From: Mytilus trossulus
Taxonomy: Eukaryota
Assembly (NCBI RefSeq): GCF_036588685.1
Contig: NC_086380.1
Location: 2,790,001 to 2,854,000, forward strand
DNA: 64,000 nucleotides
Reading direction: 5' to 3'
Each line of letters begins with the position of its first letter. Position 1 is the stretch's first letter. Below are positions 7,299 to 31,997 of this stretch, piece after piece. The position numbers and the translations under genes were made by a program. Under the pieces are notes generated by a model that saw only the letters and a list, made by a program, of their open reading frames with translations, was not told the origin of the DNA and did not search any database.

Positions 7299-8456
7299 CT
7301 TCCGAAGCTGCACAAAAAACCTTACAAATATAGATTTATTTCATCTTCTAGCCATTGTTCAACTACTAAATTGTCTGTTTTACTTACTAGTACACTTGGT
7401 ACAATAAAAAACCTGATAATAAATTGTTCAAATAAGGCCTTTGAAAATAGTGGAATTAATTACTTTTGGAGTGTCAAAAACTCGTTGGAAGTACTTGATA
7501 AATTGCATGCATATATTGGCGATTTTGAATCTGTTCAAAGTTTTGATTTTTCTACCCTATATACCACTTTGCCTCATATTCTTATTAAGAAAAAATTCAC
7601 ATCCTTAATTAACTGGGCATTTAAAAAGTCGGAATGCGAGTTCATATGTTCAAACTCTTTTAGATCATGTTTTAGTAGCAATAAACAAAAGAACTATGTC
7701 AATTGGACATGCTTTGATACTATTTATGCGCTTGAATTTTTACTTGATAACATTTTTGTTCGCTTTGGAGATTCCGTATATCGTCAAGTTATTGGAATTC
7801 CAATGGGGACTAACTGTGCACCACTTATTGCGGACCTGTTTTTGTATTGTTATGAGTTACAAATTTATCCTGTAGAACTTACTTTAAATAAAGCTAATGA
7901 TAACAATGACCACTGCCCTTTCCTCGATCTTGATATCTATATCATAAACGGGAAGCTTAATACAAAAATTTATGATAAAAGTGATGATTTTTCATTTCCT
8001 ATTGTTAATTATCCATTTTTAGATGGGGACGTTCCTTTGTCACCATCTTATGGTGTTTATATATCTCAACTTGTACGATTCGCTCGTGTATGTAACAACG
8101 TATTAGATTTTAGCGAGAGAAATTTATGTATTACTGAAATATTATTACACCAGGGTTTTCGATATCACAACTTGGTCAAAACATTTACTAAATTTTATCA
8201 CCGGTATAAGGAAATAATTCGTAAATATAACTCAACATGCAGACATCTTATACGTTCAGGTATTTCACATCCAAAATTTTATGGAAATATTCTTTATAAA
8301 GCACAACAATGTCAGTATTCTCCTCCAAAACTAACAAAACCTTTAAATAGACTTATTAAAAGGGGATATAGTTACGATACTGTTGTCAGGTCATTAAAGA
8401 TTGCATATTTTGGCTTTAACATTGATTCACTGATAGAGTCTTTGCATCGGAACTAA
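7299..8456 (+). pseudogene. Penelope-like element reverse transcriptase, 5'-truncated, with the catalytic YIDD segment deleted in frame
   Basis: Frame reads LPKLHKKPYKYRFISSSSHCSTT...SFDFSTLYT...YRQVIGIPMGTNCAPLIADLFLYCYE...FLDLDI...IYDKSDDFSFPIVNYPFL...YGVYISQLVRFARVC. These are PLE RT motifs. No C-terminal GIY-YIG endonuclease is visible, compatible with the Naiad-type N-terminal-EN arrangement. Confidence 0.85.
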
Positions 8457-12400: not shown

Positions 12401-12849
12401 CTTGTGTTGTTACATCTTCAGATTTTTTGTTGATGTCTATGCTGTGTTGATATCAGACGCTCTATAGATATTTTCCTCGTATTCTGTGTTTTTGTCGATA
12501 TCTGCAACTTCAATCATTCTGTATTTAACTCCTTGCATTGTGTGTTTTCGTAGATTTGTTGATTTTGTGAGATCTTTTGTCGTCATTTATTAAGTTTTTG
12601 TGTTTTTCAATTTGTTTTTTTTTAGTATCTTCACTTGTTACTTAAACTCGTGGTTTGTTTATATTCATATTTTGTTGCATATCCATTTCCAGTAATTATT
12701 GTCAATTCTCGTAACTATTCTTATTTAGCGTTTTTTCTTGGTGTTGTTTTCGGATTTTCAGACATCCTTTGTGCAACTTTTAAATTCTTTTCCAAAAGCA
12801 TATCCACGAAAGATGTATGCCATCCCTGACGTGACATGTCCAGTCCCAT

Positions 12850-13198
12850 CATTGTCACGAAGATCAACATTAGGATTTTTTCTTAATAATAACCTTCCTA
12901 TATCACCATGCCAATGCAGACTTGCTCAATGAAGGGGACTACAACTATTATTGTCACATTAATTAATGTTAGGATACTTTTCTAAAAGTAACTTCACTAT
13001 ATGTTCTTCGATACATACTTGCCCAGTACAGAGGACTACACCCATCATTGCCACATATATCAGAGTTCGCATTCTTTTCTAACAGCAACCTAACTGTTTT
13101 AGTATGTCGGTCCTTACTTGCCCAGTACAGAGGACTACAACCATCACTGTCGCATAGATCAACGTTAGAATTATTCTCTAACAGTAACTTAACTATAT
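12850..13198 (-). pseudogene. Orphaned, decaying ankyrin repeats downstream of the present stop codon
   Basis: Minus strand reads IVKLLLENNSNVDLCDSDGCSPLYWASKDRHTKTVRLLLEKNANSDICGNDGCSPLYWASMYR, then a frameshift, then LLLEKYPNIN*CDNNSCSPLH*ASLHWHGDIGRLLLRKNPNVDLRDNDG. Confidence 0.85.
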
Positions 13199-13290
13199 AG
13201 ATATAGGAAGATGTGGTGTGAGTGTCAATGAGACAACTCTCAATCCAAATAACAATTTAAAAAAAGTAAACCATTATAGGTCAATGTATC
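13199..13290 (-). mobile_element. ~92-bp repeat 3'-end fragment inserted in an ankyrin unit; supplies the stop codon of the large gene
   Basis: gaagatgtggtgtgagtgtcaatgagacaactctc...gtaaaccattataggtcaatgta is the reverse complement of the repeat at about 405-483. It interrupts the unit between GH and IVKLL. Confidence 0.85.
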
Positions 13291-16200
13291 ATGTCCATCC
13301 TTACTTGCCCAGTACAGAGGACTACAACCATCACTGTCGCATAGATCAACGTTAGAATTATTCTCTAACAGTAACTTAACTATATCAGTATTTCCATCTT
13401 CAATTGCCCAGTACAGAGGACTACACCCATCATTGCCACATATATCAACGTTAGAATTATTCTCTAACAGTAACTTAACTATATCTGTATGTCGTCCATC
13501 CTTACTTGCCCAGTACAGAGGACTGCAACCATTATTGTCACATAGATCAACATTAGAATTATTCTCTAACAGTAACTTAACTATATCTGTATATCCATCC
13601 TTACTTGCCCAGTACAGAGGACTGCAGCCATTATTGTCACATAGATCAACATTAGAATTATTCTCTACCAGTAACCTAACTATATCTGTATATCCATCCT
13701 TACTTGCCCAGTACAGAGGACTGCAGCCATTATTGTCACATAGATCAACGTTAGAATTATTCTCTAACAGTAACTTAACTATATCTGTATGTCCATCCTT
13801 ACTTGCCCAGTACAGAGGACTGCAACCATTATTGTCACATAGATCAACATTAGAATTATTGTCTACCAGTAACCTAACTATATCTGTATATCCATCCTTA
13901 CTTGCCCAGTACAGAGGACTGCAGCCATCATTGTCACATAGATCAACATTAGAATTATTCTCTAACAGTACCTTAACTATATCAGTATGTCCATCCTTAC
14001 TTGCCCAGTAAAGAGGACTACAACCATCACTGTCGTATAGATCAACGTTAGAATTTTTCTCTAATAGCAACCTTACGATATCAGAATATCCTTTTTGACA
14101 TGCAACTAATAAAGGACTGCAGCCCTCAATGTTGCATAAATCTACATTAGATTTATTCGCTAACAGCAACATAACGATAGCACTACGTTCATTTTGACTT
14201 GTCGTGTATAGCGGCCTACCCTGAATAGCTTTATACAGAGGGCTACGGCATTCACAGTCACACAAATCAACGTTTGGATTGTGTTTTAAAAGTAACTTTA
14301 TTATATCAGTATGACAGTTTTGACTAGCTAATTGCAGAGAACTATATCCGTCATTGTTGCAAAGGTCAATTTTAGGGTTTTTCTTTAACAACAGTCTTAA
14401 TATATCAGTATATCCATACTGACTTGCAATGTACTGAGGACTACATCCGTCATTGTCACATAAATTAACATCAGGATTATTTTCTAAGAGCAACCTCACT
14501 ATATCAGTAAGTCCATACTGACATGCTTTATACAGAATAGTACAGCCGTTATTATCACATAAATTAACATTCGGATTCTTCTCTAACAGCAACCGTACTA
14601 TATCAGTTCGTCGATATATACTTGCTTTGTACAAAGGAGTGCATCCTTCATTATTGCATAAATCAACATTTGGTCTTCTTTCTAAAAGCAGCTTTACTAT
14701 TTCTGTATGTCCCTGAGTACTTGCTAACGTCAAGGGACTGTTGCCATTATTGTCACAAAGATCAACACTGTGGTTATACTCTAAAAGCAACTTCATGATA
14801 TCAGTATGGCCATTCTGACTGGCCCAGTGCAAGGGACTTAATCCAATATTGGTACACATATTCATTTGAGGGTTCATCTTTAAAAGCAACATGACTATAT
14901 CAATATGTCCATTTTGACTTGCCCTGTACAGAGGACTCCAGCCATTTATATCACATAAATCAATCTTAAGATTCTTTTGTAACAGTAATCTTACTATATC
15001 TGTATGTCCATATTGACTTGCTTTATATAGAGAACTACACCTATTATTGTCAAAATTATCAACGTTAGGATTCTTCTCTAACATCAATCTAACTATATCA
15101 GTATGCCCGTACCTACTTGCCTCGTATAGAGGAGTACGACCATCATTGTCACAAATATCAATATTAGAATTCTTCTGTAATAGCAGACTCACTATTTCAG
15201 TATGTCCTTTCTCACTTGCTTTATAGAGGGAAGTGCAGCCATCGTTGTCACAAAGATCAATATTAGGATTCTTCTCTAAAAGCAGGCTCACTATTTTAGT
15301 ATGTCCTTTCTCACTTGCTCTGTAGAGAGAAGTGCAGCCATCGATGTCACAAAGATCTATATTAGGATTCTTCTGTAATAGCAGGCTCACTATTTCAGTA
15401 TGTCCTTTCTCACTTGCTTTATAGAGGGAAGTGCAGCTATCGTTGTCACAAAGATCAATATTAGGATTCTTCTCTAATAGCAGGCTCACTATTTCAGTAT
15501 GTCCATTCTCACTTGCTCTGTAGAGGGGACTGCAGCCATCGTTGTCACAAAGATCAATATTAGGATTATTCTCTAATAGCAGGCTCACTATTTCAGTATG
15601 TCCATTCTCACTTGCTCTGTAGAGGGAAGTGCAGCCATCCCTGTCACAAAGATCAATATTAAGATTCTTCTCTAATAGAAGGCTCACTATTTCAGTATTT
15701 CCTTTCTCACTTGCTCTGTAGAGGGGACTGCAGCCATCGTTGTCACAAAGATCAATATTAGGATTCTTCTCTAATAGCAGGCTCACTATTTCAGTATGTC
15801 CTTTCTCACTTGCTCTGTAGAGAGAAGTGAAGCCATCGTTGTCACAAATATCCATATTAGGATTCTTCTCTAATAGCAGGCTCACTATTTCAGTATTTCC
15901 TTTCTCACTTGCTCTGTAGAGGGGACTGCAGCCATCGTTGTCACAAAGATCAATATTAGGATTTTTCTCTAATAGCAGGCTCACTATTTCAGTATGTCCA
16001 AGCTCACTATTCCTGGAGAGGCAACTTTGGCCAGCATTGTCGCAAATATCTAAATTCGGTTTTTTCTCTAACAGTAATTTTACTATATCTATTATTCCAA
16101 GCTCACTTGCCCTGTAGACGGTAGTACAGCCATCCTTTTCACAAAGATCAATATTAGGAGTCTTCTCTAAAAGCAAGCCCACTATTTCAGTATGTCCATT

Positions 16201-19200
16201 CTCACTTGCTCTGTAGAGGGCAGTGCAGCCATCGTTGTCACAAAGATCAATATTAGGATTCTTCTCTAATAGCAGGCTCACTATTTCAGTATGTCCAAGC
16301 TCACTATTCCTGGAGAGGGAACTTTGGCCAGCATTGTCGCAAATATCTGAATTCGGATTTTTCTCTAACAGTAATTTAACTACATCTATAATTCCAAGCT
16401 CACTTGCCCTGTAGACGGCAGTACAGCCATCGCTGTCACATAGATCAATATTAGGATTATTCTCTAATAACAGGCTCACTATTTCAGTATTTCCATTCTC
16501 ACTTGCTCTGTAGAGGGCAGTGCAGCCAGCGTTGTCACAAAGATCAATATAAGAATTCTTCTCTAATAGCAGGCTCACTATTTCAGTATGTCCATTCTCA
16601 CTTGCTCTGTAGAGGGAACTGCAGCCATCGTTGTCACAAAGATCTATATTAGGATTCTTCTCTAATAGCAGGCTCACTATTTCAGTATGTCCATTCTCAC
16701 TTGCTCTGTAGAGGGGACTGCAGCTATCGTTGTCACAAAGATCAAAATTAGGATTCTTCTCTAATAGCAAACTCACTATTTCAGTATGTCCTTTCTCACT
16801 TGCTCTGTAGAGGGAACTTTGGCCAGCATTGTCGCAAATATCTAAATTCGGATTTTTTTCTAACAGTAATTTAACTACATCTATAAATCCAAGCTCACTT
16901 GCCCTGTAGACGGCCGTAGAGCCATCGCTGTCACAAAGATCAGTATTAGGATTCTTCTCTAAAAGCAAGCCCACTATTTCAGTATGTCCATTCTCACTTG
17001 CTCTGTAGAGGGAACTGCAGCAATCGTTGTCACAAAGATCAATATTAGGATTCTTCTCTAATAGCAAACTAACTATTTTAGTATGTCCTTTCTCACTTGC
17101 TATGTAGAGGGAAGTGCAGCCATCCCTGTCACAAAGATCAATATTAGGATTCTTCTCTAATAGCAGGCTCACTATTTCAGTATGTCCTTTCTCACTTGCT
17201 CTGTAGAGGGAACTGCAGCTATCGTTGTCACAAAGATCAATATTTGGATTATTTTCTAATAGCAAACTAACTATTTCAGTATGTCCTTTCTCACTTGCTA
17301 TGTAGAGGGAAGTGCAGCCATCCCTGTCACAAAGATCAATATTAGGATTCTTCTCTAATAGCAGGCTCACTATTTCAGTATGTCCTTTCTCACTTGCTCT
17401 GTAGAGGGAACTGCAGCCATTGTTGTCACAAAGATCAATATTAGGATTCTTCTCTAATAGCAAACTAACTATTTCAGTATGTCCTTTCTCACTTGCTATG
17501 CAGAGGGAAGTGCAGCCATCCCTGTCACAAAGATCAATATTAGGATTCTTCTCTAATAGCAAGCTCACTATTTCAGTATGTCCATTTGCACTTGCCTCGT
17601 AGAGGGAACTGCATCCATCGGTTTCAAAAATATTTAAGTTAGGATTTTTTTCTAACAGTAATTTTAAGATTTCAGTATGTCCGTTACGACATGCCATATG
17701 AAGAGGACTCCAGCCAATGTTGTTGCATAGCTCAAAATTAAGATTCGTCTCTAGTAGTAACCTAACGATACTAGTGTGTCCTAGCTGACTTGCTATGTAA
17801 AGAGGACTGCGGCATTCACTGTCACATAGATCGACATCAGGATTCTTCTTACACAACAACCTTACTATATCAGTGTGTCCATACTGACTCGCTTTGTAAA
17901 GAGGACTACTGCCATTGTTGTCACACAAATTAACGTTAGGATTGCTCTCTAACAGCAAGCTTACTATTTCAGGATGCCGATACATACTTGCCATGTAAAG
18001 AGGACTACAACCATCATTGTCGCATACATTTACATTTGAATTCTTCCATAATAGCAACCTTACTATATCAGTATGTCCATTCTTACTTGCTATTAATAGA
18101 GGTGTATAGCCATATTTGTTACTTATATCGATATTACAACTCGTGCTTAACAGCAACTTTACTATCTCAGTATGTCCATTCTGACTTGCTTTGAATAAAG
18201 GACTGCATCCATCAGAGTCACACAATTCAATATGAGGATTCCTCTCTAATAAAATTACCACAATATTCGAATACCCTTCCTGACTTGCCATAATCAATCC
18301 AGTGACACCATCAATGCTACATTGATCCACATCTACATCAGTATGTAACATCCACCTAATCATATCAGTATAACCATATTTACATGCTAGTATCAGTGGC
18401 GTTTCACCTAATCCCAAAAAACACTTTGGTAACACTGCATCCTTGGTATTGACCAATGTAATTTGTTGTCGTTTATCAAGTTGTAATATGTATTGTAATA
18501 ACTGTTGTCTAAATGATGAGTCTTTCATATTAATGTTATTGAATACAACTGACATCTTTCCTGCTGACCATTCTTTAACCAACCTTTTAAGATATGATCC
18601 TAAAAATGATTCTGGTATTTCGATAATAAAGTCTATGTTACTGTTCTTGTCATCCGGTGATTTTAGTAGAATAAAACGTTCAAGTACTAAATCGCTATCA
18701 CCATGATCTATTAAACATTCAATTATGATTTGACCAAAGTAATGAGAAAGGAAGTCAAACAATTTATCATGGATAGTTCTATAAATGCCATTCTGTTTAC
18801 AAATAAATGTATTATCTAAAGTATCAAGCGCCTCTTTGATTACTGCCTTGGATGTACTTCTGTTCAATCCACAAGCCTCACATGTATCTTCTAGGATGAT
18901 TCGCTGTTCATCTGTAACTTTACCTTGAAACCATATTTCTTTAAGTCGATTATTAAATAGAACGCAAAAAGCAAGACTACAAACTCTATATTTTCCTTCC
19001 TCTCCATGTCTACAAAGATTGTCTAACTCATTTTTATAGACGAAAAATGGATTTTGGAAAAATTCGTTCATATCAACATCGGTTCTTTCATGATAGAGTT
19101 CACATAAAAGGGGGAAAAAATCACAATATTTTGCGACTTCATTAAGAGTCTTACTATTCTTACCAATATACATGTCTGCAATTTTTGCTTTCTCTGAAGA

Positions 19201-19670
19201 TGTAAGATATAACATATTTGATAGTAAATTACATTCAAATGTTTTAAAAGGTAATAATACATTAAATTTATCATCTTTATAGACTTGTAACCTACAACAT
19301 ACGATAATCTTACAACAATGGTCTGCAAAAATCGTCTTTATCACAGGTAACAGTTGTTTCCAGTTTTCAATCTGTTGTTGGTTAGCGGTGAAATTTCCAC
19401 AAATATCATCTACAATAAATACCGCCAGTCTACCAGGTTGATAATAGTCCCTGATGTCTGGTGGTGAAGACACTGGTATAATATTATATCCTCTCATCTT
19501 TAAAACCAGTGCTGTGTGTCTAGCGATAAATGATTTCCCAAGTCCTGAAGGGGCAGTTATTGTCACACACTTGTTGTCCTCCAAACATGCAATGACATAA
19601 TCACTGGCTCTTGTAGACACGAACTTCTTGTCTTTCTTGTCCCAGTCTTCAATCTGTGCTTGTATTTGGT
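13240..19670 (-). CDS. Coding exon 5 of the HEPN-STAND-ankyrin gene: nSTAND3-type NTPase plus ~51 ankyrin repeats
   Basis: Acceptor catattttag|AC at 19671/19670 (phase 1). Walker A TITAPSGLGKS (about 19531-19563), Walker B VFIVDDICG (about 19396-19422), then a helical linker and 33-aa ankyrin units from GETPLILAC (about 18408) to 13290. Open for 6.4 kb. Confidence 0.92.
13290..14030 (-). repeat. Homogeneous block of ~8 coding 99-bp ankyrin units (GCSPLYWASKDG type)
   Basis: ccatccttacttgcccagtacagaggact recurs every ~99 bp. One unit has a 3-bp insertion (DGRHTD). Confidence 0.9.
15140..17600 (-). repeat. Homogeneous block of ~25 coding 99-bp ankyrin units (LYRASEKGHTEIVSLLLEKNPNIDLCD type)
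   Basis: Near-identical DNA units (cacaaagatcaatattaggattcttctctaatagcaggctcactatttcagtatgtcc) with dimeric and trimeric higher-order patterns. Confidence 0.95.
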
Positions 19671-20489
19671 CTAAAATATGTATGTAAAGACATAAAACAC
19701 TTACCATAAAAAAGAAGAAGAAGATATTGAATAATTCCCATTATATAAACGTGTTTACTAAAGACGTCATTCACGAAGGACATGTTTTATTTTTTGGCAA
19801 ACAACTTGCCTGTTTTCAAATCTTAAATAACCCATTGTGAACACACATTAATTTGTAATTGATTGATTGGATCATTTGATATGAAGGCGGACATAAACTT
19901 CTTTCGATCTGCATTTAAAACATCCATTTAATAGTTTTATCTCAGGCGTTATTCAAAATACAACAAACATTAAAACTCAAAGTACTTTTAACCCATGTGT
20001 TCTTGGAATAATAACATGGCTTTGGTTAAAATGTGAGAGAAAATCATTTTATAATTACTAAGAAGAATATGTCTTGATTTGTTTGTGGTATAGCTTAGAT
20101 TAAAGTGCATGCTATTGTTCTAACGACTGATTTATGTCCTGTTAACAAATGTCTGATCTGAACATGATAAAATAATTCAAAAAATGAAAATGGTTATTAT
20201 TATCATTTTTTTGCACAATATAATAGTATGTGTTAAGACAGTGTAGACAATTATGATTGGCCACAAAAAAGTGAAATAACAAAATTACCAAACTCCAAGG
20301 AAAATTATAACCAAAATTCCTGTATCAAATGGCAAAAAAACCCAGCTCAAACACATCAAACGAATGAAATACAAATGTCATATTCCTGACTTGGTACAGA
20401 GATTCTGTATGTTGAAGAGAGTGGATAACATCTGGTTTTATAGCTGGCTTAACTTTTCAATTGTATGAAATTTGACATAATTCAATTTT

Positions 20490-21375
20490 TTCTGCGAGTA
20501 CTCTCAGATCTGGACTTAGTGTGTTTTTGTTGTTGCGATATACAATTACCCGACCACGTCCACTATGTGTTTTTGTTAGAGTATTAATATTTGTATCAAT
20601 CTGATGCGTTAAGCCTTTTTCAACTGATTTCTATAGTTCGTTCTCATGTTGTACTGTTACAACACTTTCCCAGGTTAGAGGGAGGGTTGGGATTAGCTAA
20701 CATGTTTCGCCCGGCCACATTCTGTATGTATGTGCCTGTCCAAAGTCAGGAGCTTACGTACTCCCATTTAGGAACTCCCAAAAATATAATTGAATTAAAA
20801 ATCACGAATTGTATAATTCTTTATAACAGATTAAATTTGTGATAACGAGTTGTTGGAAATCAGAATAACAGATTTTTTAATTCTAAATTACGAATTGTAA
20901 TGTATGATAACGATTTAAAATCGTCATAACAAATTCAACAAAAGGGATTGAACACAAACTGAAACATCATTAGTGTGACTGTTTTCTTCAAATTCGTTAT
21001 CCCAAATTTTATCTGCTATAACGAATTATACAATTCGTGATAACGATTTAAATTCGTGATTTTGAATTCAAATTATATTTGTGGGAGGTTGTAAATGGGC
21101 CTCTTTATGAACCTGTATTGCAATGGTTGCCGTTTGTTGATGTGTTACATGTTGGTCTTTCGTTCATTTTTTTTTGTACATAAATTAGGCTGTTAGTTTT
21201 CTCATTTGAATTGTTTTACATTTGTTCTTTCGGGGTAATTTATAGCTGACTATGCGGAATGGGCTTTTCTGTTTGATGAAGGCCTTACGGTGACCTGAAA
21301 GTGTTAATTTCTGTGTCATTTTGGTATCTGGAGGACAGTTGTCTCATAGGCAATCATACCACATCCTTTTTTTTT
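20490..21375 (+). repeat. Family-2 dispersed repeat interrupted by a MITE (intronic)
   Basis: Colinear with the reverse complement of 58427-58872 and 23035-23515. Ends ggcaatcataccacatcctttttttt. Confidence 0.8.
20755..21108. mobile_element. MITE with ~50-bp imperfect TIRs nested in a family-2 repeat
   Basis: cccatttaggaactcccaaaaatataattgaattaaaaatcacgaatt versus aattcgtgattttgaattcaaattatatttgtgggaggttgtaaatggg. Internal gataacga repeats. The host repeat resumes after it. Confidence 0.75.
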
Positions 21376-21539
21376 ATATATATAATTAGTCTTTTTAGAT
21401 TTAATAGTAAAAAATGTAAGAAATAGTGTACAGAAGTCAACATTGTACTATAAGCTTAATCACTATAGAACAAACAACTATGTCAATAAAGTAAAACACA
21501 ATGACTTATAGACAAAGCCCATACGCAAACCTGAAACAT

Positions 21540-21850
21540 CAAGTATATACATCTCAGTTGATATAATATTCCAGTGCTTGCCATTTATAACCAGAATTTC
21601 TTTAAAGAAGATTGTTGTTTACATCAAAACTACGGGTACCTGCTTACAGTAAAGCTATTAAACAAAGAATTTTGTAGTAGAGTTGAAATGTTTACAGACA
21701 CGATCAAGAGTTGATTGACCATTAATCAATATTTAGATATGTTTCACAGACAATATATGTCATTTGCCGTAACCATTATCTCGCCTTCTTTTCAACCGAT
21801 TAGTAGCTACATAAGTATCACGACGGATTCCACATGTTAAGAACATTTTG
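21540..21850 (+). pseudogene. Highly decayed Penelope-like RT C-terminal fragment
   Basis: gtatatacatctcagttgatataatattccagtgcttgc = VYTSQLI*YSSAC, homologous to VYISQLVRFARVC at about 8055-8093 and to about 24325-24363. Confidence 0.5.
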
Positions 21851-21855
21851 GTCAG

Positions 21856-21858
<3 letters not shown>

Positions 21859-21894
<36 letters not shown>
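21859..21894. repeat. (CT)n microsatellite
   Basis: Perfect dinucleotide run in the intron just after exon 4. Confidence 0.95.
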
Positions 21895-21900
<6 letters not shown>

Positions 21901-21941
21901 TCTCTCTCATAATGTGTATAAAGAAGATACATGTGACGTAC

Positions 21942-22016
21942 CTCTGATGTTCTTTGGAATAACTTCATCCTGTTCAGCTTTTAATTTCTCTATTTCTGTT
22001 AAGAGTACTTGTATCG
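21942..22016 (-). CDS. Coding exon 4 of the HEPN-STAND-ankyrin gene (coiled-coil linker)
   Basis: tttttttcag|CG...AGAG|gtacgt. 75 nt, phase 1-1. Reads (T)IQVLLTEIEKLKAEQDEVIPKNIR(D) and joins exons 3 and 5 in frame. Confidence 0.8.
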
Positions 22017-22357
22017 CTGAAAAAAAATGAATATTATTTCTGTGAAAGAAAATATAAAAAAAAATGTATTATTTGCGAAAACTTCAAAATGAACAATTCT
22101 CTGTAGTTCTGTATCGTTTTGTGTATTACTGCGCTATATATTGCGATTATACTGGTTGACGATAATAGAGTCTAAATAAATGCCGGTTCATATAAAATTT
22201 TACTGGCCTCAATACAAACAAAACATCTAGACGGAAAGTCCCTAGGCAAATTGCGAAATCAAACGCTGAAACACATCAAACGAAGCTTAGAAGAACAACT
22301 GTTATATTACTGACTTTGTACAGGTATTTTCGTATGTAGAACATGGTGGATTAATAT

Positions 22358-22676
22358 AAAAAAGAAGATGTGGTATGATTGCCAATGAGATAACTATCCA
22401 CAAAAGACCAAAATGACACAGACATTAACAACTATAGGTCACCGTACGGCCTTCAACAATGAGCAAAGCCCATACCGCATAGTCAGCTATATTAGGCCCC
22501 GATAAGACAATGTAAAACAATTCAAACGAGAAAACTAACGGCCTTATTTATGTAAAAAAAAATGAACGAAAAACTAAATATGTAACACATAAACAAACGT
22601 CAACCACTGAATTACAAGCTCCTGGCTTGGGACAGGCACATACACAAATAATGTGGCGGAGTTAAACATGTTAGCG
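22358..22676 (-). repeat. Family-2 dispersed repeat
   Basis: aaaaagaagatgtggtatgattgccaatgaga...cataccgcatagtcagctata...ttgggacaggcaca...gttaaacatgttagcg. Confidence 0.85.
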
Positions 22677-23034
22677 TAACTTGGATTTATAGCTAGCTAA
22701 ACCTCTAACTTGTATGACAGTCGCATAGAATTTCAATACATTGACAACGATGTATGAACAAAACCAAGACATTATAGGTACAAATGTCAAAAAGGGTACA
22801 GCAGTCATCATTTTGTTAAATCTTAAACACTTTAAGAACATGCAAAACATTAACTAAAATCATTATTTTGGCTTTGCAATGGCATTATCATTTTGTTTTT
22901 GAATCGTGAACGTGCCTAATTATTTCGTTTCATTCGCCTCTTTTAAACGTGCCAAAGAGAAATGGAGAAATTGAAATAATAAACGTGCTCCTAACCGAAC
23001 TTATTTATTTTCAATTTCAAAATGTAAATATAAA

Positions 23035-23515
23035 AGAGAAAATGTGGTATGAATTTAAATGAGGCAACTCTCCATAAGAGACCAAATGACACAGAAATTA
23101 ACAACTATAGATCAGAGTATACGTGCGACCTGCAACAATGAGCAAAGCCCATACCGCATAGTCAGCTATAAAAAGGCCCCTAAATGACATATGTAAAACA
23201 ATTCAAACGAGACAACTAATGGCCTAATTTATGTACAAAAAATGAACGAAAAACAAATATGATCCCAACCCTACCCTAACCTGGGACAGTGTTGTACCAG
23301 TACATCATAAGAGAAAACTATAAAAATCGATTGAAAAACTCATCAGATGAATATAAATAGAAATACATCTAACAAGAACACAGAGTGGACGTCGCCGAGT
23401 ACTTGTATATCATAACAACAAAAATACGCTTGGTACTGATCTGAGAGTACTCGCTGTTACTGACAGCTAGTTCGAAGCCACTAACAACTAATAAAAAATC
23501 ATGCATCTAAGACTT
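23035..23515 (-). repeat. Family-2 dispersed repeat, internally deleted
   Basis: Same terminus (atgtggtatga...) and body as 22358 and 58427. Confidence 0.8.
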
Positions 23516-23726
23516 AAATCATGTATGATGTTGAATTGATAGTACTTGTTGTATCTTTCATCTCAACTTCAATATTTAATGTATTTAAGCTGTCATAATT
23601 CCTTTTTTATTTTTTTTATTTTTTAGGTACAGATCATCATCTACTTACTAGTATATAATGCAGTTAAAGGATACTGAGATCGTTTCCTCTGTCATGGAAA
23701 TCAATGGAATTTGAACTCATACTTAC

Positions 23727-23916
23727 TTGTATCATTCTTTGATTCATTCTCCTCATGAATTATTTTTAAATTCTCTAATGACTGTTTCAATTCCTGAATC
23801 TCATTTCTTGAATATCTAATTTCCAGAATAATGTCTTTATTTGTTTGATCAAGTACCTTTGTCTTTAACTGATCACATTGGTGTTTCATAGATGACCCAG
23901 CTAATCTATATATAGC
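23727..23916 (-). CDS. Coding exon 3 of the HEPN-STAND-ankyrin gene (end of HEPN, coiled coil)
   Basis: atattttag|GCT...ACAA|gtaagt. 190 nt, phase 0-1. Reads AIYRLAGSSMKHQCDQLKTKVLDQTNKDIILEIRYSRNEIQELKQSLENLKIIHEENESKNDT. Confidence 0.85.
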
Positions 23917-23974
23917 CTAAAATATATAAAGTGGGTTTAAAAACAAATTTAAAAAAGTCAACGTATAAATAAAA

Positions 23975-24595
23975 GGCATTCCAATGGAAACCAATTATGC
24001 CTCTCTTTTTGACGACTTTTTTCTTTATTATTATGAGGCTGACTTCAAACAGGAACTACGTAGGAAGAAAGATAAGAAGTTAGCAATATCCTTTAACTTT
24101 ACTTTCTGCTAAATAGATGATGTTCTCTCATTAAGTAATTCAATATTTGGTGACTATGTTAACAGATACAGTTAAGTATGCCTCATATCTTGACTAACAT
24201 CTAGAAATTGACAAGGAGGGTCGGTTGAAAACACAACTTTACGACAAAAGAGATGATTTAAGCTTCCCAATTGTGAACTTTCCATTTTCATGTAGCAACA
24301 TACCCAGTAGCGCCTGCATATGGAGTATAAATCTCTCAATTGATACGACATTCCCAGTCCTGTATTACCTATCATGCTTTCTTTGACAGAAGGTTGCTTC
24401 ACACAAGGAATCTATTAAACCAAGAGTTGTAAATGGTGAAATTGAAATCATCCCTTCGTAAATTTTATCAACGCCATCACGAGTTGGTTAACCGTCATGG
24501 AATATCCGTTTCACAGACGATATCGGATATGTGTCTTATGTCGAAACTACAATCCCGTTCGCTTCTCACAACTTTGATCTACCAAATGAGACTAT
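23975..24595 (+). pseudogene. Decayed Penelope-like RT fragment (second family), antisense in an intron
   Basis: GIPMETNYASLFDDFFLYYYEADFKQELRRKKDKKLAISFNFTFC*IDDVLS...LYDKRDDLSFPIVNFPFSCSNIP...KLKSSLRKFYQRHHELV, with stops and frameshifts. Confidence 0.8.
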
Positions 24596-24597
24596 TT

Positions 24598-24650
24598 AAT
24601 ACGCCTGACGCGCGTTTCGTCCACACAAAACTAGCCAGTGACGCTCAGAT
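24598..24650 (-). ncRNA. Degenerate type I hammerhead-ribozyme motif (core mutated)
   Basis: Minus strand: gcgtca CTGGCTA gttttgtgtggac GAAA cgcgcg TC aggcgt. The CUGAUGA box is changed to CUGGCUA. Confidence 0.6.
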
Positions 24651-25404
24651 AAAAAAGTTTGAAAGCCAAAACAAGTACAATATGAAGTGCATTGAGGACT
24701 AAAAATTCCAAAAAGTTGTGCCAAATACGGCGAGGGTTTTCTGCCTGGGATAAGAACATACTGATTGTTTAGAATAACTTTTGCGACCATTTTTTTTTAT
24801 AAAATGACTATATAATAGATATTCATGATAAAACTAAAGTGGTGACTAACTACAGAATAAATATGTCGTGAATTGAAAAATGTCTGTGTTTTCGTGTAAA
24901 TTTGAGATCTTTGTTTTGCCAAAGTTTGCACTCAAATCTAGAGAATATTAGCTTTTCGTTGATCATTTGAAATTTTGCGGTTCATCTGTGCAATCGAAAC
25001 CCACGACAATTGATATCCAAGGAATGTTTTTAAATCCACAGTAATATATATCCTACCTTTTGCAGTTTCTGTTGCATGTAACCAGATAAGGGAAACCCTT
25101 TGTTACGAACTCCATGTTAAAAAAATTTCAACTGCTTCCGCTGACTAATTTGATGCCTTTGAGAAATTAAAGATACTCTTTGATTTTTGGAACACACTTT
25201 TCTTTTTATGTTATTGGTCTTTATGGCCTTTGTTTATTAACTATTATTGTGGTGCAACTTCTGAGAAGACTATGTAGGTTTTCTTTCTTTTTCGGTTTCA
25301 ATGACTTACGCTGGGTACTTGACTGTCCGGGATACTTTTAGAAGATTACTTGAGATGAGAGCTCAAATTACGAACGAATATTATATTTTTCAATAAAAAC
25401 AAAC

Positions 25405-25634
25405 CTCACTAATGTCTTCCCAGGCAGGGTTGAAAAAAGTATTGTCTATCTTTGCGTCATCTAGATGGGCTAAGTAATTCCTGTAATACTTTATCCTCGC
25501 CAAATCAGAACCAGGTGTAGTCTCAATGGCTGAAGGAAGGCGGTCATATCCTCCGTGTGGAGGGATCAAGTCTGCCAGGTTTCTTAGTAATGTTATAATC
25601 AATGTTATGTCGAATGTATCAGAATTTGGAACAT
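25405..25634 (-). CDS. Coding exon 2 of the HEPN-STAND-ankyrin gene (HEPN core with RxxxxH)
   Basis: ttttgacag|AT...GAG|gtttgt. 230 nt, phase 1-0. Reads (D)VPNSDTFDITLIITLLRNL...GSDLARIKYYRNYLAHLDDAKIDNTFFNPAWEDISE. FDITL..LLRN and D..RI..YRN..AH are the DZIP3-type HEPN signatures. Confidence 0.9.
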
Positions 25635-25721
25635 CTGTCAAAACGAAAGATTTGAACTCATCATGATGTTTTAACCAATTCCTGGAAATTATTATCAAAG
25701 GTACCAGGATTATAATTTAGT

Positions 25722-26224
25722 ACGCCAGACGCGCGTTTCGTCTACATGGTCCGAGAACACAATTATTTCGTAGTGCATTTCTTTTAGAACATAAATGTAA
25801 ATAAAAAAAATCCCACCTGCGCTTTCTCAAAGAAACTTTTACAGTGTGTTGTACTACTTTTGGGACAAATTATATCAAAATAATAGAAAACTTCATCGGC
25901 TCTAACTCAAAATATGGACAATTGTATGTTTAGGGCGTCTTGAAATCTGTTGACAGCTTCCGAAGTGCTAATTTAAAACCTTTTTCAGTTGGACCAAATC
26001 ACTACTTTCCTTTAAAATTCTGGACCCAAATTTTTTTACAGTGTAATGTTATCCCCCTACTTGCAATTTGAGGCATTAAACATGAAGAAATAAATTTGGA
26101 AGGGGTATAAAAAGTAATGGCAAGTTACCCACTGTCAACACTAGGGGCTATATTTGTGAACAACGAAAATCAAGGGACGACAATGGTGGTCTCGGACCTA
26201 ATACATAAGACTCATCAGTGACGC
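25722..26224 (-). ncRNA. Minimal type I hammerhead ribozyme with intact core, split in loop II by a MITE
   Basis: Removing the insert and one TSD copy gives gcgtca CTGATGA gtct tatgt agac GAAA cgcgcg TC tggcgt: 6-bp stem I, 4-bp stem II, palindromic minimal stem III, and a GUC cleavage triplet at 25730-25728. Confidence 0.8.
25748..26201. mobile_element. ~450-bp MITE
   Basis: TIRs ggtccgagaacac ... gtggtctcggacc(taa). Flanking direct repeat tacat at 25743-25747 and 26202-26206. Confidence 0.75.
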
Positions 26225-26861
26225 TCATATCAAAATATTTATAAAGTCAAACAAGTACAAAGTTGAAGAGCATTGAGGATCCGAAATTCCCAAAACTGTA
26301 AATGGTGACTGAATTTTTTTTTAATCGTCCTCCTGCTAAAACAAAACTATAACTAGATTTGCCATTGCAAGCAATAGCGGGTGTCACCTTCCCCCTATGG
26401 GTACTTACTGGCAGCCATTTCGAAAATTTTAAAAAGGCTATCAACTGTTAATTATAAAAACAATTAAAGCATTTTTGATATATTTTTTTTTATATATTCA
26501 CGCAGTATCAATGGCAACGGTTACAAATTTGGAAACTCCAAACATTAAAGGCCCATCCAGATTTACCAGTTAACAATCATATAAAGTTTCATAAAATTAC
26601 GAGCATATCAAAATTTTTGATTTTTCTTTTGTATTTTTGCTTGTTCCTCTGGAATAAGAGACTGTTTCTAAAATTTAATGACGATACCACATTGGCACAT
26701 GGAAGGGAACATACCATGAATGTATCAACTGATTTGTCCTACCATTTTAGAAAGTAAATTCTAAAGTAAACCAAAACATCAGATGAAATTGCATCATCAA
26801 GTAAGTAACTGCTTATCAATACATCTATGTGTGTATTATTTTAATATTGAAGTGATAATAA

Positions 26862-27333
26862 AACAAGAATGTGTCCTTATTATACGGATGCTCCACTCGG
26901 ACTATCATTTTCTATGTTAAATGGACTTTGCAATTTGGGTAAAAACTGTCATTTTGCATTAAACTTAGAAAGATTATATCATAGGTAACATGTAGACTCA
27001 TTGTCAACTTAATTGGACTTCCACTTCATCAAAAACAACCTTTACCAAAAACATTAACCAAAAACTTTAACCTGAAACTTGCACTATCAATTTCTATGTG
27101 TTCAGTGGACCATGAAATTGGAGTCAAAACTCTAATTGGCCTTAAAATTAGAAAGATCATATCATTGGAACATGTGTACTAAGTTTCAAGTTGATTGGAC
27201 TTCAACTTCATCAAAAACTACCTTGACCATTTTTTTTAACCTGAAGCGGTATAGACGAATGGATGAACGGACGGACGGACGGACGCATAGACCATTAAAC
27301 GATTCCCCTCTACTATCATAGGTTGAACATAAT
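26862..27333 (+). repeat. HINE/pearl-like dispersed repeat
   Basis: Starts aacaagaatgtgtcc, has two internal units and an (ACGG)n tract at about 27266-27285. Homologous to 2975-3388 rev. Confidence 0.7.
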
Positions 27334-27719
27334 AAGTATTTGCCTTCATAGTTTGGATCAAATCGAAACTGATAGTAAAATTTACCGTAGATTTCAAATA
27401 TTTAAGAAAATAAAAGTATACAAAGTGTATTAAATGATGAGCTAATGAGATCTTACTTTGATTCTCTGAAGATATACATAAAGCCTGTTACAAAATAATA
27501 TTGAGATGTTTGTATTGCTTATGGACTCTTTTTTATATGAATATCTCTGAAGATATATGCTGTTACAGGAGATTTAGAAGAACATCTGTGTCTTAGGAAA
27601 TGAATTGAGCTTTATTGCAGCTGGTAAAATATACACGTAACATGTATCAGTATATTGATATTAATCAGGTTTCTATTCTAGTAATGGTGCATAATATGGC
27701 TAAATACATGGCAACTTAC

Positions 27720-27936
27720 CCGGAAATCGAGTGAACAGCAGATTCCACTGATGCGGGTTTATAACTTTTTTCTTCTTCATGTCATTCAGTTTGTTGAGCT
27801 CTTTCTTCAGTGAGGCATCCAAGCATGATGGGGCAAATTCTCGATCAAACAAAGTTCGCGCCGCACGTGGACATATTCCTGTTAGCAGCAAGCCCATCCT
27901 GACATAATTTTCCTCTTCTATTGAGAGAGTTGTCAT
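27720..27936 (-). CDS. Coding exon 1 of the HEPN-STAND-ankyrin gene (HEPN N-terminal half)
   Basis: ATG at 27936 (aaaaATGa), upstream acceptor attatttag| at 27962/27961, donor CCGG|gtaagt at 27720/27719. Reads MTTLSIEEENYVRMGLLLTGICPRAARTLFDREFAPSCLDASLKKELNKLNDMKKKKVINPHQWNLLFTRFP, the typical E..NY.R...L / Q..LL.P start of DZIP3-type HEPN domains. Confidence 0.88.
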
Positions 27937-28204
27937 TTTTGTGGTGTACAATTCTGTCTACCTAAATAATGTTAAATATATATATATATATATTATAAAT
28001 CACAGATTGCCTAACAATGTAATTTTAACACACTATTTAGTATGTAAATATAAGAATGTTTAAAGTATTTACAAAATGATGACAATAAACGCAATATTTC
28101 GCTAGACCAACTAGCTTTATCAAGCGTGCATCTATCCAGGTGAAATCGGATGTAGATGATAAGAAACTTTTGCAGCTCAATGTATATGTTGCACTTAGCT
28201 GCCT

Positions 28205-31200
28205 TGAAAATAAGAGATGTATGTATGTTTCTTTAGTTTCGGTACAAAAAGTGCACAGTTCTGTTTCACTATATTTACACTTCATAAGTAAAGTATTTGT
28301 TCCTAGAATTCTATGGAGTAATCTGTATTGAAATGCCCTTAATGTGGGATCTTCAGTTATAAGTAAAGGAAGACTAAAACAATAATTCCATTCTTCGGCC
28401 ACAATATCTATTCCCAATTTCATTTTCCATTTCTCTTGTATGCGTGATGGGGTTTCCTTTATTTTATCTAGAAAAAAATTATAAAAATGTTTTGATACTT
28501 TATCAACTGTTTTTATGGCGGTAACAATTTTGTGACTGACAGTATTTAGTTTGATAAATACTTGAGAATAAATAACATTCTTCCATTCCTTTAGCAGTGC
28601 CAAGATTAGTCCATAGAAATCTAAGAAAGTTGTTTTTATATTATAATTTCTAATAAATTCATCATAATTGTAAAATTCTCCATTTTCCTTAATGAGATCA
28701 TTTATGAAAAATACATTATTCTGTATCCAATTTTTATAAAAAGCTGTTTTTCCATCAATCATAATATTTTCATTTAAAAACAATGGTTGAGACAAGATAT
28801 CACTTGGGGCTGTGGTCAGAGGTTCACACAATGATTTCCATGATGAAATTACATTTTGCCAAAAAGGGTTAAATTCTTTTTTAATTTCATTGAGTGCTGA
28901 TTTTGATAAATGCCACATATTTTCACCACCATTCATTTCAAGGTGATCTGCCAATAGAACCTTGCATGAGGAATAATTTGTGGGGTCTAAAACTTTTTTC
29001 ACCCAGGATAACTTAAGTGATTTTATAAATGATTCAATATGTGGCATTTTTACACCACCATCCTCGTAATTTGAGATAAGTATATTTCTTTTAATTTTGT
29101 CCCCTTTACCATCCCACACAAATCTGTATAGCATAGATTGTAACTGCTTTACTATATCTGGGGATGGATCTGGTAAAACAGTAAAACATTGAATTAGAAT
29201 TGGTAGGGCGAGAGTTTTCACAACTACAATTTCCCCATATATAGTAATATTTCTAAATGACCAGTCACTTAAAAGATTTTTAACTTTTCGATTTTTTTCT
29301 AAATAATTATCAACACATATATCAACTTTTGACAAACAATATTGGATGCCTAGGAGTTTGAAATTTCCTGAATGGTTCCATATTATTGTTTTATTTGTGT
29401 TTAGCTCCTCACCACAGCCCCTTTTTTGCCCCAATCCATATTACTTAGTTTTTTTTTCAAAATTAGCCTTCAAACCAGAGCATGAGTAAAACAAGTCTAT
29501 ATTATTTAGAGCACTGTTGAGAGATTCTTCACTATCATCCAGGATCAAAGTCGAATCATCAGCATACTGACTGAGTAAAAATTCAGAATTCTTAATCTTT
29601 ATACCATTAATGTTGTTGTCATATTTTATTGATGCACTAAGCAGTTCCAAACATAAAATAAAAGGGTAGGGAGACAATGGATCCCCTTGTCGTACCCCCT
29701 CTCTATTACAAAAAAAATCAGATAGATAGCCATTATTTTGAATGCAGCTTTTTGAATTGTAGTAAAGGGTTGTGAACCATTTCACTATTGTGTCCCCAAA
29801 TCCTAGAAATTTCAAGGTTTCACATATAAAGTTCCACTCAAGAGAGTCGCAGGCTTTTTCAAAGTCCAACAAGACAAGCAAGCCAGGAATATCTTCGTCA
29901 TCTACTTTTTTCAAGAGGTCATATATAAGTCTTGTACACTCACCAATATATCTGCCTTTCATAAAGCCAGTTTGAGTTTCACTAATCAGGTGATCAAGGA
30001 CTTTTTAAATTCTATTTGCAATACATGTTGATACTATTTTATAGTCTACATTAAGCAGTGAAATAGGTTGCCAATTTTTTAGAAAATGTTTTGGTTTACC
30101 ATCTTGGGTAGACAGGTGATAACACCTTGTGTTTGTGAAATTGATAATTTACCTTCTTGAAATGCTTCTTTGAAAGAACGCAGTAAGAAAGGATAAGTGT
30201 CGTGCCCAATTTTTTTTATAAAACTCAGTTGTAAAACCATCCAGACCAGGAGATTTTCCATTTTTCATATTTTTTAATGCATTATGAATTTCTGAGCTTT
30301 TTAGTTCCCCCTCTAAATTAATATTTTGTTCATCAGACAGAATTTTGATAAATTGGTTTTCAAGAGAAAAGAAATTAGCTCTGTGTGTATTATTTATAAG
30401 TGTTTTCTTAGATGAATATAGATTATCATAATATAACTTTTGTTCCGCACGAATTTTTGCTTGATCAGTGATACATTCACCATTATCGAAAGTTAATTTT
30501 TGTATTACTTTGTCAATATAATTTCTTTTCTCTAGATTACAGAAATATTTTGTACTTGTCTCCCCTTCAATTTGCCATTTAGCTTTTGCTCTCATTATTG
30601 CCCTTTTTATTCTAGATTCTCTTAACGACCTTAACTGAAGTTCAATACGTGTAATTTCTTCCCTTTTATCATTGATATTTTCATTATTGTTCAAATTGTT
30701 CAATTGACTTTCTAGTTCTTGTTCTTCCCTACTGCGTTCTTTCTTTTTAAAAGATGAATAAGAAATTGTTTTTCCTCGTATCATCAGTTTCCCAAAACAG
30801 TTGGTCGGAAATGGAAAATTATATTTCTTCCCTATTTTCAGAATCAACTATTTTATATTGATCAATACAATCAGCAATACAAGTTTTAGTATTAGTAATA
30901 AATTCTTTGTCGTATGATAAAGCATTGTTAAATTTCCACGTCCCTTTGCCTTTTTCATTTGTATTAAATTGAATGGACAGAGATACGGGTGAGTGATAAG
31001 ACCTATATGCAACACCAATATCACACGAGGTTATCAGTGGTTGAAAATCAGATGAAACAAGGAAGTAGTCCAGTCTTGCCTGCTTCTTGTTAGGTCCTCT
31101 CCAGGAAAATCTCTTTTTCTCTGGGTATAATTCCCTATAAACATCAACCAGATCTATTTCTGACATCATTTCATTAACCTTTTTTTGAGCTTTAGGATTA

Positions 31201-31524
31201 TTTTTATGCAAATAGTTTAAAGTATCCATATCATAATTTTGTGGTAAATTCCAATCAACCCCCACTATTACTGAAGTATTACCAAAGTTTTCAATATCTC
31301 TTTGGAGTATTTCATAAAAAGCTGGTTTGTCCTCATTGGGTCCATATACCACTGCTATTGTCATTCTATGATTGAAAATTTTTATATCTAGAATTGCATA
31401 GTTCCCGTTTTGATCCACTTTTTGTCCAAAAATTTCAAAAGAAAAAGTGCTTCTAAACAAGATAGCCACGCCTCTACTGCTCGTGGTATGCGACCCAAAT
31501 ATTATTTTATAACCCCATTCTGCC
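28205..31524 (-). mobile_element. Decayed L1/Tx1-type LINE ORF2 (APE endonuclease, RT, Cys/His tail), frameshifted and truncated at both ends
   Basis: EN: VYGPNED, GVDWN, ARLDYFLVS, SYHSPV. RT: KSPGLDGF, LLDFEKACDS, GVRQGDPLSP, QYADDS. Tail: CTFC...ETYIHLLF. Spread over five reading frames. Confidence 0.9.
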
Positions 31525-31997
31525 TGTCAGTTAACTGCTAATAGTCTGTTGTTATTTATGTATTATTGTCATTTTTTTTATTTTCTTTTGTTACATCTTC
31601 TGACATCGGACTCGGACTTCTCTTGAACTGAATTTTAATGTGCGTATTGTTTGCGTTTTTTTTACATTGGCTATAGGAATAGGGGGAGGGTTGAGATCTC
31701 ATAAACATGTTTAACCCCGACGCAATTTTGCGCCTGTCCCAAGTCAGGAGCCTATGGCCTTTGTTAGTCTTGTATGATTTTTAATTTGAGTTTCTTGTGT
31801 ATAATTCGGAGTTTAGTATGACGTCCATTATCACTGTACTAGTATACATATTTTTTTAGGGGCCAGCTGAAGGACGCTTACCGGTGCAGGAGTTTTTCGC
31901 TACATTGAAGACCCAAAGGTGGCCTCCGGCTGTTGTCTGCGCTATGGTCGAGTTGTTGTCGCTTTGACACATTCCCCATTTCCTTTCTCAATTTTAT
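31525..31997 (+). mobile_element. 5'-truncated copy of the Penelope-like 3' tail (family 1), abutting the LINE endonuclease region
   Basis: Colinear and highly similar to 8625-9096. Confidence 0.9.

What the first reader, a model, noticed from the sequence alone, without database searches (positions are those of the whole stretch)
13240..27936. Spliced HEPN RNase - STAND NTPase - 51x ankyrin gene: candidate animal NLR-like sensor with a built-in ribonuclease effector
Seen: four small upstream exons that the ORF track reports as unrelated fragments (or misses) splice in frame to the 6.4-kb exon through GT-AG introns with matching phases (1, 0, 1, 1), giving about 2380 aa. The N-terminus has a DZIP3-type HEPN fold with an intact RNYLAH motif (25465-25482). 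It is followed by a coiled coil, intact Walker A (APSGLGKS) and Walker B (VFIVDD), and a very long ankyrin array. Known: HEPN domains with RxxxxH are dimerisation-activated RNases (Cas13, toxin HEPNs, and the related KEN domain of RNase L/IRE1). STAND NTPases oligomerise when their C-terminal repeats bind a ligand (NLRs, Apaf-1, fungal HET, bacterial antiviral STAND proteins). Inference: ligand binding to the ankyrins drives STAND oligomerisation and switches on RNA cleavage. That would be a one-protein invertebrate immune/suicide system, mechanistically closer to bacterial antiviral STANDs and RNase L than to death-domain NLRs. I recall such domain combinations in bivalve annotations, but I know of no functional characterisation.
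Basis: partly seen in the sequence, partly recalled or inferred. Interest (0 to 1): 0.88.

Follow-up and report, generated by a model that had tools for sequence, protein, structure and literature searches.

The report
Mussel immune sensor with RNA cutter
A spliced mussel gene encodes one protein that joins a predicted RNA-cutting domain, a switch ATPase and 51 ankyrin repeats; it is one of about ninety or more similar loci that likely act as self-contained immune sensors, but no activity has been tested and related designs were already noted in pearl oysters and corals.

Summary
Observation confirmed. Five minus-strand exons splice in frame (phases 1,0,1,1) to 2380 aa: DZIP3-type HEPN (RNYLAH), coiled coil, nSTAND3 NTPase and 51 ankyrin repeats. 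Contigs from three public runs join the exons; exon 4 is inferred from exact 75-letter gaps, and no single contig spans HEPN to STAND. The gene is not unique: 88 of the 150 best HEPN hits in this genome have a same-strand nSTAND3 exon downstream. The HEPN exon is under purifying selection (median dN/dS 0.20). Sister forms carry CARDs, and 25 of 29 keep a HEPN-like helix without the catalytic motif. The NTPase falls in the same Pfam family as bacterial Avs5. Best reading (0.6): a ligand-gated STAND receptor with a direct RNase output; ligand, oligomer, RNase activity and immune induction are untested. This copy lacks the usual terminal cap and ends in a repeat insertion. The scan noted another member of this family earlier on other DNA. 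New variant of a known kind; interest 0.6.

The parts
27720..27936 (-). Coding exon 1 (Met1 to first third of HEPN); probably preceded by an unlocated 5' UTR exon
   Evidence: HEPN profile 2-34; X2 record 13, X3 record 18
25405..25634 (-). Coding exon 2, HEPN core
   Evidence: (82 bits); splice sites at the same places in 29 of 29 extracted paralog exons
25465..25482 (-). HEPN catalytic motif RNYLAH (R124, H129)
   Evidence: R, N, H invariant in 29 of 29 extracted paralogs
23727..23916 (-). Coding exon 3, last HEPN helix and start of predicted coiled coil
   Evidence: long helix in homolog models
21942..22016 (-). Coding exon 4 (75 nt), end of linker
   Evidence: exact 75-letter gaps in X1 record 4 and X3 record 17
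18454..19670 (-). nSTAND3 NTPase module at the start of exon 5: Walker A K283, Walker B D325/D326, R364, P424, winged helix with H538
   Evidence: labels sensor-1 / GxP-like / MHD-like are recalled, positions come
13291..18417 (-). 51 complete ankyrin repeats plus a cut 52nd; recent internal duplications up to 98% DNA identity
13198..13290 (.). Interspersed-repeat fragment inserted into repeat 52; supplies the last residues and the stop at 13240-13242
   Evidence: (91% to window 408-483, 92% to L030)
12845..13197 (-). Degenerate ankyrin remnants, frameshifted; covered by contigs of other runs, likely 3' UTR in this allele

Best explanation
This is a spliced mussel gene for a HEPN-coiled coil-nSTAND3-ankyrin protein that likely works as an NLR-type receptor with a built-in RNase: a ligand would bind the ankyrin array, the NTPase module would then assemble, and paired HEPN domains would cut RNA and shut the cell down. 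Shown: the gene structure, splicing, domains, conserved motifs, family size and alternative N-terminal modules. Inferred from Avs5, SAMD9 and HEPN biochemistry: autoinhibition, assembly (ring or filament), the composite RNase site and the immune or suicide outcome. Unknown: the ligand and the RNA substrate.
For: Splicing in contigs of three runs. HEPN and nSTAND3 above Pfam cutoffs. 88 of 150 HEPN hits have a same-strand nSTAND3 hit within 35 kb downstream, against 12 upstream and 0 on the opposite strand. HEPN exon dN/dS median 0.20 over 363 pairs, none above 1; pairs with this gene 0.08-0.25. RxxxxH intact in 36 of 45 HEPN-labelled homologs and kept in subfamilies with only about 30% STAND identity. 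CARD-bearing sisters: 0 of 29 have RNxxxH, 25 of 29 keep the homologous helix, as expected if CARD replaces a catalytic output. A second module with an RNxWAH motif, resembling HEPN_DZIP3/DUF4559 clusters, also occupies the slot. N-terminal labels change repeatedly on the STAND tree (HEPN 14 changes, at least 8 forced). In a homolog model, matches extending through the winged helix include Dark, Avs4, MalT, NOD2 and NLRP3, and Avs5 filaments score Z 11.3 and 10.7. Avs5 has nSTAND3, needs its Walker A, and resembles SAMD9; it is activated by filamentation. HEPN RNases use a dimeric composite site. Among the most recent repeat duplicates, pN/pS is 0.99 at presumed binding positions against 0.50 at scaffold positions.
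Against: No DZIP3-type HEPN RNase assay was found in the searches. Dead HEPN-like segments are conserved in CARD forms, and 9 of 45 HEPN-labelled homologs have K or W in place of R, so the fold has a non-catalytic use. Fold searches do not single out STANDs: the Foldseek top rows are DnaA, ORC, RFC and other AAA+ proteins, and VIA Z scores of 10-12 are tied with generic AAA+. No positive selection (pN/pS above 1 overall) was seen in the ankyrins. This copy lacks the C-terminal cap seen in most of the 13 homolog ends printed. No induction data for this gene were found. The 29 paralogs were chosen by similarity to the query, which favours motif conservation.
Confidence: 0.6

Rival explanations
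1. The protein is a STAND receptor, but its HEPN acts as a dimerisation or RNA-binding scaffold that signals through partners (for example CARD-bearing paralogs) rather than cutting RNA.
For: 25 of 29 CARD forms keep a catalytically dead HEPN-like helix (hhalign probability 25%, E 7.5e-4). K- and W-variants persist. No RNase assay of this family was found.
Against: R, N and H are invariant with synonymous variation in 29 of 29 extracted close paralogs and kept across deep subfamilies. Loss of the motif coincides with gain of CARD.
Confidence: 0.15
2. The RNase is real but serves something other than pathogen-triggered suicide, such as retrotransposon control, non-self or transmissible-tumour recognition, or a regulated non-lethal RNA decay step.
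For: The papers read leave the target open: viruses and transposons, infectious tumour cells for related architectures. Ankyrin positions show relaxed rather than positive selection.
Against: Large clustered expansion with module shuffling is the pattern these papers tie to defence genes. Tested relatives in the NTPase class are antiviral.
Confidence: 0.12
3. The family is functional but this copy is a decaying or unstable allele, with an over-expanded array, a repeat-derived end and no terminal cap.
For: Repeat insertion supplies the stop; remnants beyond are frameshifted; the usual cap is absent. Its open frame is the third longest of 150. The one raw-read RNA run laid gave no depth on the exons.
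Against: 2380 codons are open; dN/dS of 0.08-0.25 for this gene's HEPN exon against paralogs; spliced contigs in three runs. Of the STAND columns conserved at 80% or more, only two differ.
Confidence: 0.08
4. It works like RNase L: the ankyrins bind a small nucleotide messenger that dimerises the RNase, and the NTPase is only structural.
For: Ankyrin plus KEN/HEPN is the RNase L layout (table). That RNase L ankyrins bind 2-5A is recalled.
Against: No kinase domain. 51 rapidly duplicating repeats and variable array lengths among paralogs fit a large or varied ligand better. The P-loop is strictly conserved.
Confidence: 0.05

Closest known systems
Invertebrate DZIP3-type HEPN-NACHT-repeat receptors (pearl oyster PMC9646362; cnidarians PMC8260672; family table in PMC3710099)
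   Same: Same N-terminal HEPN family with RNxxxH, central STAND-class NTPase, C-terminal repeats, lineage-specific expansion, predicted RNase and immune role, none tested in the passages read.
   Different: Here the NTPase is nSTAND3, not NACHT, and the repeats are ankyrins. 'ankyrin' and 'STAND' do not occur in the main text of the pearl oyster paper.
Bacterial Avs5 (AVAST type 5; bioRxiv 10.1101/2025.07.08.663546, PMC11897194)
   Same: Same Pfam NTPase family (PF20720); effector-NTPase-repeat order; direct enzymatic effector.
   Different: Avs5 has a SIR2 NADase and TPR-type sensor, is bacterial and intronless; its Walker B has one acidic residue, here two.
Human SAMD9/SAMD9L (PMC13245274)
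   Same: Animal STAND-like protein with an intrinsic N-terminal RNase that blocks translation when activated.
   Different: Alba-type tRNA nuclease, SIR2, TPR and OB domains, a degenerate Walker A, and one or two genes; here HEPN, ankyrins, an intact Walker A lysine and a very large family.
RNase L / IRE1 (KEN domain)
   Same: HEPN-superfamily RNase; ankyrin repeats in RNase L.
   Different: Kinase-like switch instead of a STAND NTPase; C-terminal RNase; different HEPN family.
Apaf-1/Dark, NOD2, NLRP3
   Same: NBD-helical-winged-helix module aligned over 251-256 residues in a homolog model. CARD-bearing sisters of this gene resemble them.
   Different: They signal through death-fold adaptors and use WD40 or LRR sensors.

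Membership tests
DZIP3/hRUL138-like HEPN (PF18738) | Profile score above the curated cutoff | tested here: met
   82 bits against 27 for exon 2 alone; contiguous profile positions across exons 1-2
DZIP3/hRUL138-like HEPN (PF18738) | Rx4-6H motif with Asn after Arg | tested here: met
   RNYLAH at 25482-25465
Active HEPN RNases | HEPN fold matched to a solved HEPN structure | tested here: inconclusive
   No HEPN chain among the listed rows, where the NTPase domain filled the lists; no significant PDB sequence hit; the domain was not folded alone
Active HEPN RNases | Dimer with composite active site and RNA cleavage | not testable with these tools
   Needs an assay; the complex predictor was unavailable
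nSTAND3 (PF20720) | Profile score above cutoff; Walker A lysine and Walker B acidic pair | tested here: met
   85.7 bits against 27.2; K283, D325, D326 conserved in 89-100% of 105 deep homologs; first Walker A residue Ala
STAND NTPases | NBD plus helical domain plus winged-helix domain | tested here: met
   Model of homolog P0169 (pLDDT 87.7) aligns through residue 530-532 to Dark, Avs4, MalT, NOD2, NLRP3 and also Cdc6/Orc1; Z about 10-11, tied with AAA+ rows that stop near 450. Homolog, not the window's own protein.
STAND/NLR-type receptors | Tripartite effector-NTPase-repeat order | tested here: met
STAND/NLR-type receptors | Ligand-induced oligomerisation that activates the effector | not testable with these tools
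   Inferred from Avs5 and SAMD9 papers
Canonical animal NLR (NACHT + LRR) | NACHT domain and LRRs | tested here: not met
   Neither family listed at E up to 0.1
Avs5 / SAMD9 family | SIR2-like domain and TPR-type sensor | tested here: not met
   No SIR2 or TPR family; no AVAST model among PADLOC hits, best NTPase hit is candidate PDC-S73, E 1.3e-10
RNase L | Kinase-like domain followed by KEN RNase | tested here: not met
   No kinase or KEN family

The most novel reading that the evidence does not exclude
Mussels run a repertoire of a hundred or more Avs5-class (nSTAND3) receptors. Their single-exon NTPase-ankyrin chassis is plugged, through a phase-1 intron, into either a live HEPN RNase or a CARD-plus-dead-HEPN head. 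Pathogen proteins bound by the fast-duplicating ankyrin arrays would drive oligomer or filament assembly and RNA destruction: a second, independent animal case, after SAMD9, of bacterial-style direct-nuclease STAND immunity, at far larger scale and possibly with sensor-helper pairing between the two classes.
Probability: 0.35. Interest if true: 0.85.

Novelty: new variant of a known kind. Interest (0 to 1): 0.6.

Why it matters
Of the eukaryotic STAND proteins characterised before it, SAMD9 is described as the departure that uses a direct nuclease. A pearl oyster survey found typically only 5-20 NACHT genes in other molluscs. Mussels have at least 150 nSTAND3 loci that NACHT-based counts would miss and that are named 'ankyrin-like' or 'uncharacterized' in databases. 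If the RNase is real, this is a large hidden intracellular receptor repertoire in a farmed animal. The standing prediction that DZIP3-type HEPNs are defence RNases would also become directly testable with a compact N-terminal fragment.

Tried and rejected
Complex prediction (HEPN homodimer) was not available: queue full twice; nothing was folded. The look-up of sequencing runs: no RNA holder listed on record; RNA status of X1-X3 is the tool's guess, and the intron-free joins are what argue for spliced RNA. Raw-read run X23 (about 6 in 100 read) gave no depth in bins made of exon sequence only; not used as evidence on expression. PDB sequence searches found only ankyrins for the STAND-exon query and nothing at E below 0.01 for HEPN or P0169. 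Foldseek on the full homolog model returned only ankyrin proteins. No HEPN structure was listed, where the HEPN domain was barely tested. The careful tree did not finish; the quick tree was used, on 80 rows, leaving out homologs with no assignable N-terminus. The joint that skips the 3' insertion (X2, X15, X19) has at most 29 letters on one side and could come from any uninterrupted repeat, so the insertion's polymorphism is not shown. hhalign between the RNxWAH module and the DZIP3 HEPN gave only 2% probability, so its HEPN identity rests on the motif and an Atlas lead. Range outside Mytilus was not established: all named rows among the 120 listed and 10 of 10 distant representatives looked up (of 150 listed, 971 at E up to 0.001) are Mytilus; Atlas clusters say Mollusca, with bacterial nSTAND3 clusters as structural neighbours. 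'Chance ORF fragments' was rejected. The oyster OsHV-1 paper's 'Dzip3' induction was not used, since its domain content was not checked.

Full report
Observation. The six-frame scan shows a 2166-aa open frame at 13240-19740 and short frames upstream. Splicing 27936-27720, 25634-25405, 23916-23727, 22016-21942 and 19670-13240 on the minus strand uses GT..AG introns with phases 1, 0, 1, 1 and gives 2380 aa without a stop. Pfam HEPN_DZIP3 is split exactly by intron 1 (positions 2-34 and 36-115), and nSTAND3 scores 85.7 bits. There are 51 complete ankyrin units and a cut 52nd.

Transcripts. Of four runs laid on 18200-28200, three contig sets carry intron-free joins. X2 record 13 runs exon 1-2-3 contiguously with 4 mismatches in 595 letters, so it is this gene rather than a paralog (the best paralog exon is 76% identical in protein). 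X3 record 18 joins exons 1-2. X1 record 4 and X3 record 17 join exon 3 to exon 5 with exactly 75 letters between; the exon 4 piece itself was not listed. No single listed contig spans HEPN core to STAND, so the whole link is composite. The fourth run (raw reads, about 6 in 100 read) gave no exon depth. Contigs continue 35-55 letters past 27956, which suggests an unlocated 5' UTR exon.

The 3' end. A ~92-nt fragment of a common interspersed repeat sits in repeat 52 and supplies the stop. Frameshifted ankyrin remnants follow, and contigs of all four runs laid there cover most of 12300-13140. Most of the 13 homolog ends printed share a capping unit that this copy lacks. Whether the insertion is allele-specific is not settled.

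Family. The own genome gave 150 HEPN-exon and 150 nSTAND3 matches, both at the scoring cap (336 and 430 candidates). 88 of 150 HEPN hits have a same-strand nSTAND3 hit within 35 kb downstream, 12 upstream and 0 on the other strand; this is linkage, not shown splicing. 126 of 150 STAND hits lie in open frames of 600 aa or more, consistent with one large NTPase-ankyrin exon as here. The 120 listed database homologs are Mytilus where named; 45 carry HEPN_DZIP3 and 28 carry CARD by precomputed Pfam. On a quick tree of the NTPase module (80 rows), HEPN needs 14 changes and CARD 15, with at least 8 and 10 forced by strong branches. Automated gene models in tandem clusters and gene conversion may inflate this. 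CARD forms are not simple swaps: 25 of 29 (the 28 plus one named CARD protein) keep a HEPN-like helix and 0 of 29 keep RNxxxH. Fourteen proteins carry a different head with RNxWAH, whose Atlas look-alikes are HEPN_DZIP3/DUF4559 clusters (a lead).

Selection and motifs. For 29 of 30 fetched HEPN exons (L026 not extracted), median dN/dS is 0.20 over 363 usable pairs at median dS 1.26; R, N and H are invariant, and splice sites sit at the same places. These were the closest 30, which biases towards conservation. Among 45 database HEPN forms, 36 keep R and H, 6 have K and 3 have W. In the NTPase, K283, D325, D326, R364, P424 and H538 match columns conserved in 89-100% of 105 deep homologs; the first Walker A residue is Ala in this subclade. 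Among recently duplicated repeats (28 tree edges at 85% identity or more), pN/pS is 0.99 at presumed binding positions (recalled DARPin scheme) and 0.50 elsewhere: relaxed, not demonstrably positive.

Structure. Two homologs were modelled, not the window's own protein: P0026 (pLDDT 83.7) and P0169 (87.7). Both show a helical HEPN, a long helix and a five-stranded NTPase with helical and winged-helix domains. Foldseek's top rows for P0169 are DnaA, ORC and other AAA+ proteins at E about 1e-4. In the wide search, Z 10-12 is shared by many AAA+ chains. The rows extending through the winged helix are Dark, Avs4, MalT, NOD2, NLRP3 and Cdc6/Orc1, and two Avs5 filament structures score 11.3 and 10.7.

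Mechanism. Shown: anatomy, splicing, conservation, expansion and alternative heads. Inferred: the ankyrin array restrains the NTPase until it binds a ligand; assembly then pairs HEPNs into a composite RNase site, as HEPN RNases require (PMC13017515, passages), and RNA cleavage stops translation. Avs5 has the same Pfam NTPase, needs its Walker A, and resembles SAMD9 (10.1101/2025.07.08.663546, passages); it is switched on by filamentation (PMC11897194, abstract). I put this at 0.6. Rivals: scaffold HEPN 0.15, non-pathogen role 0.12, decaying copy 0.08, RNase L-like 0.05.

What is known. PMC3710099 (passages and section 9) lists DZIP3 HEPN as mostly catalytically conserved, fused to ankyrin, CARD, NACHT and others, and expanded in oyster. 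PMC9646362 (passages) reports more than 50 HEPN-NACHT genes in pearl oyster, 194 of 202 HEPNs with Rx4-6H, and proposes RNase activity. PMC8260672 (passages) reports 17-83 HEPN-NACHT proteins in anthozoans. PMC8195603 (passages) describes shuffled STAND, HEPN and ankyrin modules in Crassostrea. PMC13245274 (passages) describes SAMD9 as a STAND-like tRNA nuclease. Also read as passages, adding little: PMC9334734, PMC13581612, PMC7773633, 10.64898/2026.05.15.723513 and 10.1101/2022.07.19.500537. 'Mytilus' with 'nSTAND3' returned 0 papers, and 'nSTAND3' alone 5, of which 4 were listed, none on animals by title. Searches listed no functional study of such a protein. The library lacks most subscription papers, and no supplements were read; they may list this architecture.

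Verdict. A real, spliced, well-conserved gene and a fair hypothesis, but one member of a large family whose general design and RNase prediction are in print for NACHT versions. The nSTAND3-ankyrin chassis, its link to Avs5, its scale in mussels and the live-HEPN versus CARD-plus-dead-HEPN split were not found in the papers searched. New variant of a known kind; interest 0.6.

Noticed in passing
P0004, P0029 and other CARD-bearing homologs: CARD-nSTAND3-ankyrin proteins keep a conserved HEPN-like helix without the catalytic residues (25 of 29), suggesting a structural role for a dead HEPN.
   Followed up: partly
P0059, P0061, P0308, P0357 and others: A second N-terminal module with an RNxWAH motif, resembling DUF4559/HEPN clusters, sits on several nSTAND3 subfamilies; possibly a second RNase family in the same slot.
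   Followed up: partly
P0044, P0064, P0073, P0078, P0084, P0103; P0095, P0096, P0098: Conserved HEPN variants with K or W in place of the catalytic R.
   Followed up: no
P0351: A homolog with two tandem HEPN domains, both with RNxxxH.
   Followed up: no
window 28037-31526 (-) and 42444-46126 (-): Two broken LINE-like elements (endonuclease and reverse transcriptase frames, identified by eye); the first may lie in the intron before coding exon 1.
   Followed up: no
window 7287-8456 (+), with related fragments near 24198-24700: A 389-aa frame resembling a retroelement reverse-transcriptase C-terminal part (by eye); similar fragments lie in intron 2.
   Followed up: no
window 16041-16932: Higher-order duplication inside the ankyrin array: a distinctive multi-repeat block recurs.
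   Followed up: no
window 13192-13271 (-): A GT inside the inserted repeat and an AG just past it could form a small cryptic intron; no supporting joint was listed.
   Followed up: partly
window 18301-19668 (-): The NTPase region matches PADLOC candidate phage-defence model PDC-S73 at E 1.3e-10.
   Followed up: no
G000 C8 about 54-57.5 Mb: A cluster of nSTAND3 hits with no HEPN hit among the best 150 nearby; their N-terminal modules were not examined.
   Followed up: no
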